Of a stretch of DNA of 59,751 nt, positions 5,478 to 6,472 are shown in pieces; within the stretch, counting starts at the first letter, position 1, and every line of letters starts with the position of its first letter. The notes beneath the pieces are model-generated. The model ran no database searches. It was not told the DNA's origin and was given only the letters and a program-made list of their open reading frames with translations. Origin of the DNA: Aplysia californica. Its lineage: Eukaryota. The position numbers and the translations under genes are program-made. The stretch spans positions 800,586 to 860,336 of the forward strand of contig NW_004797340.1 of assembly GCF_000002075.1 (NCBI RefSeq). The letters are read 5' to 3'.

Positions 5478-6472
5478 GTGGCGCTTACACAAAAGCTATA
5501 GGCGGGGACTTTGACCAAGGAGCCATGAAGTTGGGATTTACATCTAACTCGTATCCCAGTGAAGATCCATCTACCACAGAGGGTCCATCTACCACAGAGG
5601 GTCCATCTACCACAGAGGGTCCATCTACCACAGAAGGTCCATCTACCACTGAGGGTCCATCTACCACAGAGGGTCCATCTACCACAGAGGGTCCATCTAC
5701 CACTGAAGGTCCATCTACCACTGAGGGGGATTTACATCTAACTCGTATCCCAGTGAAGATCCATCTACCACAGAGGGTCCATCTACCACTGAAGGTCCAT
5801 CTACCACTGGAGGTCCATCTACCACAGAGGGTCCATCTACCACTGAGGGTCCATCTACCACTGAAGGTCCATCTACCACAGAGGGTCCATCTACCACAGA
5901 GGGTCCATCTACCACAGAGGGTCCATCTACCACTGAAGGTCCATCTACCACAGAGGGTCCATCTACCACAGAGGGTCCATCTACCACAGAGGGTCCATCT
6001 ACCACTGAAGGTCCATCTACCACAGAGGGTCCATCTACCACTGAAGGTCCATCTACCACTGAAGGTCCATACTACACTAGTGACTCACCATACACCAGTG
6101 ACTCACCATACACCAGTGACTCACCATACACCAGTGACTCACCATACACCAGTGACTCACCATACTACACTAGTGACTCACCATACACCAGTGACTCACC
6201 ATACACCAGTGACTCACCATACACCAGTGACTCACCATACTACACTAGTGACTCACCATACACTAGTGACTCACCATACTACATTAGTGACTCAACATAC
6301 ACCACTGGTTCACCATACTACACTAGTGACTCACCATACACCAGTGACTCACCATACACCAGTGGTTCACCATACTACACCAGTGACTCACCATACACCT
6401 CTGGTTCACCATACAATACCGAATACCCGTTTGTCGGCTGATCGTATTCTGAAGAAAGATAAAAGAAATTAA
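5478..6472 (+). CDS. Exon 2 of secreted repeat protein, copy 2: GAYTKAIGGDFDQGAMKLGFTSNSYPSED-(PSTTEG)n. As assembled it shifts frame at G5 (5725-5729) into (VHLPQR)n/(THHTPV)n, stop 6472. The ancestral frame (PSTTEG)n-(PYTSDS)n-PYNTEYPFVG stops at 6441.
   Basis: Polypyrimidine tract plus CAG acceptor (ttttttttcccaacag|). In frame with exon 1 and with ORF 5525..6472. 18-nt coding minisatellites. Confidence 0.75.

What the first reader, a model, noticed from the sequence alone, without database searches (positions are those of the whole stretch)
5525..6472. One minisatellite read in two frames: acidic (PSTTEG)n switches to basic His-rich (VHLPQR)n/(THHTPV)n with no premature stop
Seen: an internal duplication restarts the gggatttacatctaactcg segment at ~5727 and joins through G5 (5725-5729), one G short of in-frame. 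The shifted frame stays open for ~247 codons and ends at 6472, only 31 nt past the ancestral stop at 6441. The same alternative frame is also open in copy 1 (16-333). As assembled, copy 2 encodes a 348-aa acid/His-basic diblock protein. This could be frameshift-derived novelty, or a homopolymer length switch between two proteins of opposite charge. Caveats: synonymous variation and the copy 1/copy 2 differences (YVG*/FVG* versus four replacements in the His-frame tail) favour the PYTSDS frame as ancestral. A sequencing or assembly error at a repeat junction is also plausible.
Basis: partly seen in the sequence, partly recalled or inferred. Interest (0 to 1): 0.7.

Follow-up and report, generated by a model that had tools for sequence, protein, structure and literature searches.

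The report
Assembly seam fakes histidine-rich mucin tail
In a repeat-rich animal gene for a predicted secreted, mucin-like protein, the apparent switch to a histidine-rich tail is likely a stitching error in the genome assembly, and the lack of stop codons in that second reading frame follows from the genetic code alone, so this is ordinary.

Summary
The assembled sequence is as described. A 34-bp segment restarts at 5727 (offset 194) through G5, giving a 348-aa product with a 247-aa His/basic tail. Neither striking feature survives testing.

(1) The open frame is forced. A +1-frame stop needs a Leu/Ile/Val/Met codon; all synonymous encodings of PSTTEG, PYTSDS and PYYTSDS are open in that frame. 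All 54 His arise from NCA codons.

(2) The junction lacks support in sequencing data. None of 80 contigs from 4 runs bridges it. In the two best-matching DNA runs, the 34-bp segment lies on one unbroken contig that continues into 5503-5532, not into repeat. Contigs can drop rare paths, so this is strong but not proof.

The two array blocks differ in unit order (3 of 8 units match), which fits two alleles or paralogues stitched together. The four commonest repeat variants are silent in the acidic frame and change residues in the His frame.

The real gene is likely a two-exon, secreted, acidic (PSTTEG)n-(PY[Y]TSDS)n mucin-like protein in a small tandem family; no homologue was found. Verdict: probable artefact, low interest.

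The parts
4382..4433 (+). Exon 1 coding part (MKTSQCWLLLFVLGTMQ plus one base); predicted signal peptide
   Evidence: ATG at 4382, GT donor at 4434; 7-residue hydropathy peak about 3.1. No signal-peptide predictor was run; splicing not tested with RNA.
4434..5477 (+). Predicted phase-1 intron, GT...AG with a T-rich tract
   Evidence: Sequence
5478..5532 (+). Start of exon 2, non-repetitive linker
   Evidence: The loose end of the X1 and X2 contigs equals window 5503-5532.
5533..5566 (+). 34-bp non-repetitive segment, first occurrence
5567..5726 (+). First block of 18-bp PSTTEG units (8 whole units plus 16 bp); likely from another allele or paralogue
   Evidence: Unit order differs from the second block at 5 of the first 8 units
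5725..5729 (+). G5 at the seam; likely assembly junction
   Evidence: No bridging contig among 80 laid from 4 runs; junction-specific 31-mers would cover 5698-5756
5727..5760 (+). 34-bp segment, second occurrence (restart)
   Evidence: Identical to 5533-5566; identity runs 63 bp
5761..6066 (+). Second block, 17 PSTTEG units (read VHLPQR/VHLPLK in the +1 frame)
6067..6408 (+). Array of 18- and 21-bp PY[Y]TSDS units (read THHTPV/THHTTLV in the +1 frame)
6409..6441 (+). C-terminal PYNTEYPFVG and TGA stop of the acidic frame
   Evidence: same stop position in copy 1
6470..6472 (+). First stop (TAA) of the +1 frame, in the predicted 3' UTR
1..302 (+). Copy 1: 3' end of a sister gene (PY[Y]TSDS array, TGA at 300-302); its 5' part lies outside the window
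   Evidence: 3-1427 matches 6139-7583 at 87.6%; alignment
14770..14821 (+). Further copy of exon 1 (one F/L difference), followed by intron start and then an N gap at 14999-15362
   Evidence: 409 of 411 bases identical around exon 1; 12972-14998 matches 2462-4610 at 92-97%

Best explanation
The 5726/5727 junction is likely an assembly seam where the starts of exon 2 from two near-identical alleles or paralogues were stitched together through a short G overlap, and the real gene likely encodes only a predicted secreted, acidic, mucin-like (PSTTEG)n-(PY[Y]TSDS)n protein. Shown: the +1 frame of such a repeat cannot contain a stop, and its His residues are a by-product of CCA/TCA/ACA codons. Shown: run contigs carry both flanks of the seam in their ordinary context, and none crosses it. 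Inferred: the two-allele or two-paralogue origin of the seam; splicing and secretion; a role as an extended, O-glycosylated extracellular (mucus, coat or matrix) protein whose Tyr/Ser/Asp block may be sulfated, phosphorylated or cross-linked. Leaving out 5533-5726 gives an intact 273-aa frame (114 S+T, 37 P, 36 D+E, 28 Y, 0 H); the true array lengths are unresolved.
For:: in X1 (120-bp contig, depth 36.8) and X2 (209-bp contig, depth 25.1), 5727-5789 continues upstream without a break into 5503-5532. Depth over 5730-5749 equals those single contigs, so none of the 51 unlisted pieces crosses the seam. On the left, contigs of X2, X5 and X12 leave 5727 as ordinary repeat. Contigs of 54-60 bp at depth 2.2-3.7 survive beside the repeat in X1, X2 and X12, so small side paths are not always pruned; the blocks share 3 of their first 8 units, while the 34-bp segment is identical, which is not a plain tandem copy; the four commonest variants (in 10, 9, 10 and 6 units) are silent in the acidic frame and replacements in the His frame; over all 10 distinct variants, 4 are silent in the acidic frame and 1 in the His frame; open frame forced by the code; the scaffold has 11 N gaps, a 99% second exon 1 ending in a gap, and an 805-bp 97.5% duplicate straddling a 100-N gap. 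False duplications of repeats from two haplotypes are documented in short- and intermediate-read assemblies (PMC5632298, passages).
Against: Only contigs were laid, and the tool states that contigs show presence, not absence; a short path leaving a deep repeat could be pruned. X1 and X2 are one sample, and it is not established that the window was assembled from it; X1 holds only 0.66 of the sampled words. X5 and X12 do not cover 5730-5749 at all, so they say nothing on that side. No N gap or other mark lies at the seam. Six of the 10 distinct variants also change residues in the acidic frame. Secretion, splicing and function were not tested.
Confidence: 0.8

Rival explanations
1. The junction is real but without function: unequal crossover or slippage between two alleles or paralogues made a frameshifted, effectively null or mildly harmful allele in the sequenced individual, buffered by sister copies.
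For: Minisatellite arrays in tandem gene copies recombine readily (established knowledge). A 1-base G overlap and a nearby GG likeness lie at the join. Different unit orders fit a cross between two arrays as well as they fit a misjoin. Sister copies exist.
Against: No contig crosses the join in the two best-matching DNA runs, although both flanks are covered and depth-2 to depth-3 side contigs survive.
Confidence: 0.14
2. The junction is real and the allele makes a useful secreted diblock protein with an acidic N-block and a His/Arg/Lys-rich C-block, for example binding metal or forming a coacervate with the acidic sister proteins.
For: As assembled, the frame runs 348 aa from a predicted signal peptide, with 54 His and 24 K+R in the last 247 aa, and stops in the last exon near the normal stop, so such an mRNA would not be expected to trigger nonsense-mediated decay (inference).
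Against: Open frame and His content are forced by the code. Repeat variation fits constraint on the acidic frame. No junction contig in any run, including the RNA-like X12 where repeat contigs reach depths in the thousands. The exact frame is not in the protein collection.
Confidence: 0.04
3. G5/G6 is a reversible homopolymer switch between an acidic and a basic protein, as in phase variation.
For: One extra base would restore the frame.
Against: The G run exists only at the unsupported seam; neither G5 nor G6 junction contigs were seen, and the lay listed no insertions or deletions. A 5-base run is short for a slippage switch (established knowledge), and no such switch is known to me in an animal germline (recall).
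Confidence: 0.02

Closest known systems
False tandem or haplotype duplications of repeats in draft assemblies (PMC5632298; passages read)
   Same: A repeat block appears twice in non-identical form because the two instances come from different haplotypes, giving a wrong protein prediction.
   Different: There the error was proved with long reads and often lay beside gaps; here it rests on short-read contigs and no gap lies at the seam.
MUC1 VNTR frameshift neoprotein in ADTKD-MUC1 (PMC5843638; passages read)
   Same: A one-base shift in a mucin tandem repeat reads through the whole array and stops shortly beyond it, as the assembled allele here would.
   Different: The MUC1 allele is shown by long reads, arises by a single C insertion in a C7 run, and is a presumably toxic disease allele, not an adaptation. 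No sequence relation was tested or is implied.
MUC1-ARF (PMC5074479; passages read)
   Same: Shows that the +1 frame of a mucin repeat can be long, open and translated.
   Different: MUC1-ARF starts at its own downstream AUG and was detected as protein. Here the +1 frame is entered only through the doubtful seam; it has stops at codons 7 and 16 of exon 2 otherwise.
Pro/Thr/Ser-rich secreted mucin-like repeat proteins (general class, from my own knowledge)
   Same: Predicted signal peptide, short linker, long S/T/P-rich tandem repeat; 114 S+T and 37 P in 273 aa.
   Different: No Cys-rich, vWD, SEA or membrane domain; a second Tyr-rich acidic block; no Pfam family and no homologue found.
Sea urchin SpTransformer (Sp185/333) proteins (PMC5940198; passages read)
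   Same: Clustered, repeat-rich genes with a His-rich region, in which frameshifts occur in messages.
   Different: There the His-rich region is the normal frame and frameshifts commonly remove it. No sequence likeness was seen or tested; analogy only.

Membership tests
Genuine frameshift neoprotein of a coding VNTR (MUC1fs type) | The frameshifting lesion is present in the organism's DNA reads | tested here: not met
   No bridging contig among 80 laid from 4 runs; flanks covered in X1 and X2. Contigs only, so absence is not absolute.
Genuine frameshift neoprotein of a coding VNTR (MUC1fs type) | Shifted frame reads through the array and stops soon after it | tested here: met
   forced by codon content
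Genuine frameshift neoprotein of a coding VNTR (MUC1fs type) | Shifted transcript or protein detected | tested here: inconclusive
   X12 (RNA is the tool's guess) holds repeat contigs but no junction and no cover at 5730-5749; protein not testable here
Dual-coding (overlapping) reading frame under selection | Alternative frame longer than composition predicts | tested here: not met
   Open in all synonymous encodings of all three units
Dual-coding (overlapping) reading frame under selection | Variation is silent or conservative in the alternative frame | tested here: not met
   1 of 10 distinct variants silent in the +1 frame, 4 of 10 in the acidic frame, including the four commonest
Phase-variable homopolymer switch | Both tract lengths occur in reads | tested here: not met
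Secreted mucin-like PTS-repeat protein | Tandem repeat rich in Pro, Thr and Ser | tested here: met
   151 of 273 residues are S, T or P
Secreted mucin-like PTS-repeat protein | Cleavable signal peptide | tested here: inconclusive
   Hydrophobic core in exon 1; no predictor available, splice not tested
Secreted mucin-like PTS-repeat protein | O-glycosylation and secretion | not testable with these tools
   Needs biochemistry
Gel-forming or membrane mucins (MUC2/MUC5 or MUC1 type) | vWD, CysD, cystine-knot or SEA plus membrane domains | tested here: not met
   No Pfam family for the acidic frame; only sub-threshold low-complexity hits for the shifted frame

The most novel reading that the evidence does not exclude
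A real recombinant allele turns an acidic secreted mucin-like gene into a secreted acid/His-basic diblock protein in one step, because repeats without Leu, Ile, Val or Met carry a ready-made stop-free, His-rich +1 frame; the product pairs with the acidic sister proteins or binds metal, a polyelectrolyte born by frameshift.
Probability: 0.04. Interest if true: 0.65.

Novelty: not a real feature. Interest (0 to 1): 0.1.

Why it matters
If the artefact reading holds, the lesson is for scanning: a long open +1 frame over a repeat without L/I/V/M is guaranteed, and frame switches inside minisatellites of gapped drafts need read support before they count. What remains is a small tandem family of orphan, predicted secreted, two-block repeat proteins whose repeat is deeply covered in one RNA-like run; that is of modest interest. 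If the junction were real and translated, it would be a clean case of a one-step birth of a His-rich protein from a mucin repeat.

Tried and rejected
Protein homologues: residues 1-46 of the exon-2 frame gave no hit at E<=10 among 1406 candidates of 181-578 aa or 331 candidates of 579-2000 aa; shorter proteins were not searched in that collection; no hit at E<=0.001 among 1.84 billion representatives. The 238-aa acidic frame gave 2 hits among 7856 candidates, both sharing only short STTEG-like stretches (10% and 13% of the query), rejected as convergent. Neither frame is in the collection by exact sequence; both queries lack exon 1, so this is weak. Pfam: nothing above cut-off. ESM Atlas: best score 0.78, uninformative. 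A 24-base motif of the unique segment: no match in metagenome contigs. Earlier findings: none. The lack of cover at 5730-5749 in X5 and X12 is not used as evidence. Contig depth ratios in X1 (repeat pieces at 4.3, 9.1 and 6.6 times the unique contig, against 2, 5 and 4.3 occurrences in the window without the first block) hint at longer arrays or more copies, but the tool warns that depth is no copy number. Papers: the five peptide motifs hit one paper, on a myelin protein, seen as a listing only; a recalled Plasmodium S-antigen example of repeats read in different frames was not found and stays a recollection; some searches gave background only. Supplements were not searched, so a proteomics table could hold these peptides. 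Rejected: selection for an open second frame; a plain recent tandem duplication (unit orders differ); a homopolymer switch.

Full report
Setting. The window is a gapped eukaryotic draft scaffold with 11 N gaps, microsatellites and many dispersed repeats. No whole genome is held for it. The finding lies in exon 2 of a predicted two-exon gene: exon 1 at 4382-4433 encodes a hydrophobic N-terminus and ends in a GT donor; exon 2 starts at 5478 after a T-rich tract and AG. The 3' end of a sister copy occupies the start of the window (3-1427 matches 6139-7583 at 87.6%), and a further exon 1 at 14770-14821 runs into an N gap.

Observation. The segment at 5533 restarts at 5727, 194 bases on, through G5 at 5725-5729. 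The spliced frame is 348 aa: an acidic 101-aa N-block and a 247-aa block with 54 His and 24 Lys+Arg, ending at 6472, 31 bases past the TGA at 6441. The same frame is open in copy 1, and the tails differ by one replacement in the acidic frame and four in the His frame. Exact identity between the two starts lasts only 63 bases; after that the 18-bp units come in a different order, matching at 3 of the first 8 positions.

Is the open frame surprising? No. A stop in the +1 frame needs a codon ending in TA or TG, and only Ile, Leu, Met and Val have such codons (PMC5909447 gives the Ile example, passages read). The 238-aa acidic frame has no Leu or Met, one Ile and one Val. All synonymous encodings of PSTTEG (3072), PYTSDS (2304) and PYYTSDS (4608) are open in +1, whereas the +2 frame is open in 69%, 52% and 52%. 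Random 6-codon units without these four residues were open in all of 50,000 trials, unrestricted units in 72% of 50,000. All 54 His come from NCA codons (35 Pro, 17 Ser, 2 Thr) followed by a pyrimidine. A stop within 11 codons of the true stop has probability about 0.52. The open frame in copy 1 is therefore no sign of conservation.

Which frame is constrained? Among 25 PSTTEG units and the 32 PY[Y]TSDS units of both copies that fitted the unit pattern there are 10 distinct single-base variants. Four are silent in the acidic frame and one in the His frame. The four commonest (seen in 10, 9, 10 and 6 units) are all silent in the acidic frame and all replacements in the His frame; about 22-30% of random changes would be silent in either frame. 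Units are related by copying, so unit counts are not independent, and six rarer variants change residues in the acidic frame too. The weight still lies with the acidic frame.

Is the junction real? Twenty-four runs were listed, 20 holding part of the stretch. I laid 4 of them on 5690-5800: X1 and X2 (best DNA holders, one sample, possibly the source of the assembly), X5 (another sample, probably DNA) and X12 (RNA by the tool's guess). All are contigs. Any contig holding the junction words would cover 5698-5756. None of the 80 records laid does. In X1 a 120-bp contig (depth 36.8) and in X2 a 209-bp contig (depth 25.1) cover 5727-5789 and run on upstream, unbroken, into letters equal to window 5503-5532. 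A real junction would give this segment two predecessors and would be expected to break the contig there (inference from how such contigs are built). Depth over 5730-5749 equals these single contigs, so the 51 pieces not listed hold no bridge. On the other side, contigs in X2, X5 and X12 leave 5727 as ordinary repeat. Contigs of 54-60 bp at depth 2.2-3.7 persist beside the repeat, so short side paths are not always removed.

How the seam likely arose. Two starts of exon 2 with the same 34-bp segment and different unit orders are what two alleles or two near-identical paralogues would give. The X1 contig ends at 5476, just inside the intron, which would fit a fork between two upstream versions, though this is only a hint. 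The scaffold shows other possible haplotype doubling: an exon 1 copy identical at 409 of 411 bases ending in a gap, and an 805-bp 97.5% duplicate on the two sides of a 100-N gap. Such errors are documented for repeats in draft assemblies (PMC5632298, passages read). A real unequal crossover would leave the same letters, so only reads separate the two; the contigs favour the artefact.

What the gene likely is. Without 5533-5726 the frame is intact at 273 aa with 114 Ser+Thr, 37 Pro, 36 Asp+Glu, 28 Tyr, 3 Lys+Arg and no His. This is the make-up of a secreted, extended, O-glycosylated mucin-like protein with a Tyr-rich second block; glycosylation, sulfation or cross-linking are inference. No Pfam family and no homologue were found. 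In X12 the repeat contigs have depths of about 500 to 3900, which would mean strong expression of some family member if the run is RNA; it does not show which copy. One X12 contig leaves the repeat into sequence absent from the window, a possible further paralogue.

Comparison. If real, the allele would work like the MUC1 VNTR frameshift neoprotein, which also reads through a mucin repeat and stops soon after it (PMC5843638, passages read); MUC1-ARF shows that such a frame can be translated (PMC5074479, passages read). It fails the first test for that class, presence of the lesion in sequencing data, and fails both tests for a selected overlapping frame. The five peptide motifs hit one unrelated paper in the library (listing only); supplements were not searched.

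Verdict. Assembly artefact 0.80; real but functionless allele 0.14; functional diblock protein 0.04; homopolymer switch 0.02. Interest 0.1.

Noticed in passing
window 2718-2865: Exact 74-bp tandem duplication (100% identical); the look-alike block has it once, at about 13225-13297. Possibly another assembly seam or a recent duplication.
   Followed up: partly
window 37563-38367 and 39716-40506: 805-bp direct duplicate at 97.5% identity on the two sides of a 100-N gap (38368-38467); looks like both haplotypes kept.
   Followed up: partly
window 12972-14998: Copy of 2462-4610 at 92-97% identity, including exon 1 (14770-14821) with only two differences over 4062-4610, ending in an N gap; allele or paralogue unresolved.
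   Followed up: partly
window 18807-19757 and 33494-34300, minus strand: Two calcineurin-like phosphoesterase (PF00149) open frames, about 64.5% identical in DNA over 603 bases, each with a likely further exon downstream (17562-18059; 31856-32209).
   Followed up: partly
run X12, loose end at window 5726: A contig leaves the PSTTE repeat into about 100 letters not found in the window; possible further family member with a different C-terminus.
   Followed up: no
window 7552-7838: 51-bp tandem array of 5.6 copies at 97% match downstream of copy 2; copy 1 aligns only to its first unit.
   Followed up: no
window 4872-5348: 158-codon open frame inside the predicted intron, ending across an (ATC)n tract read as poly-His; no Pfam hit above cut-off; may be a fragment of a mobile element.
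   Followed up: no
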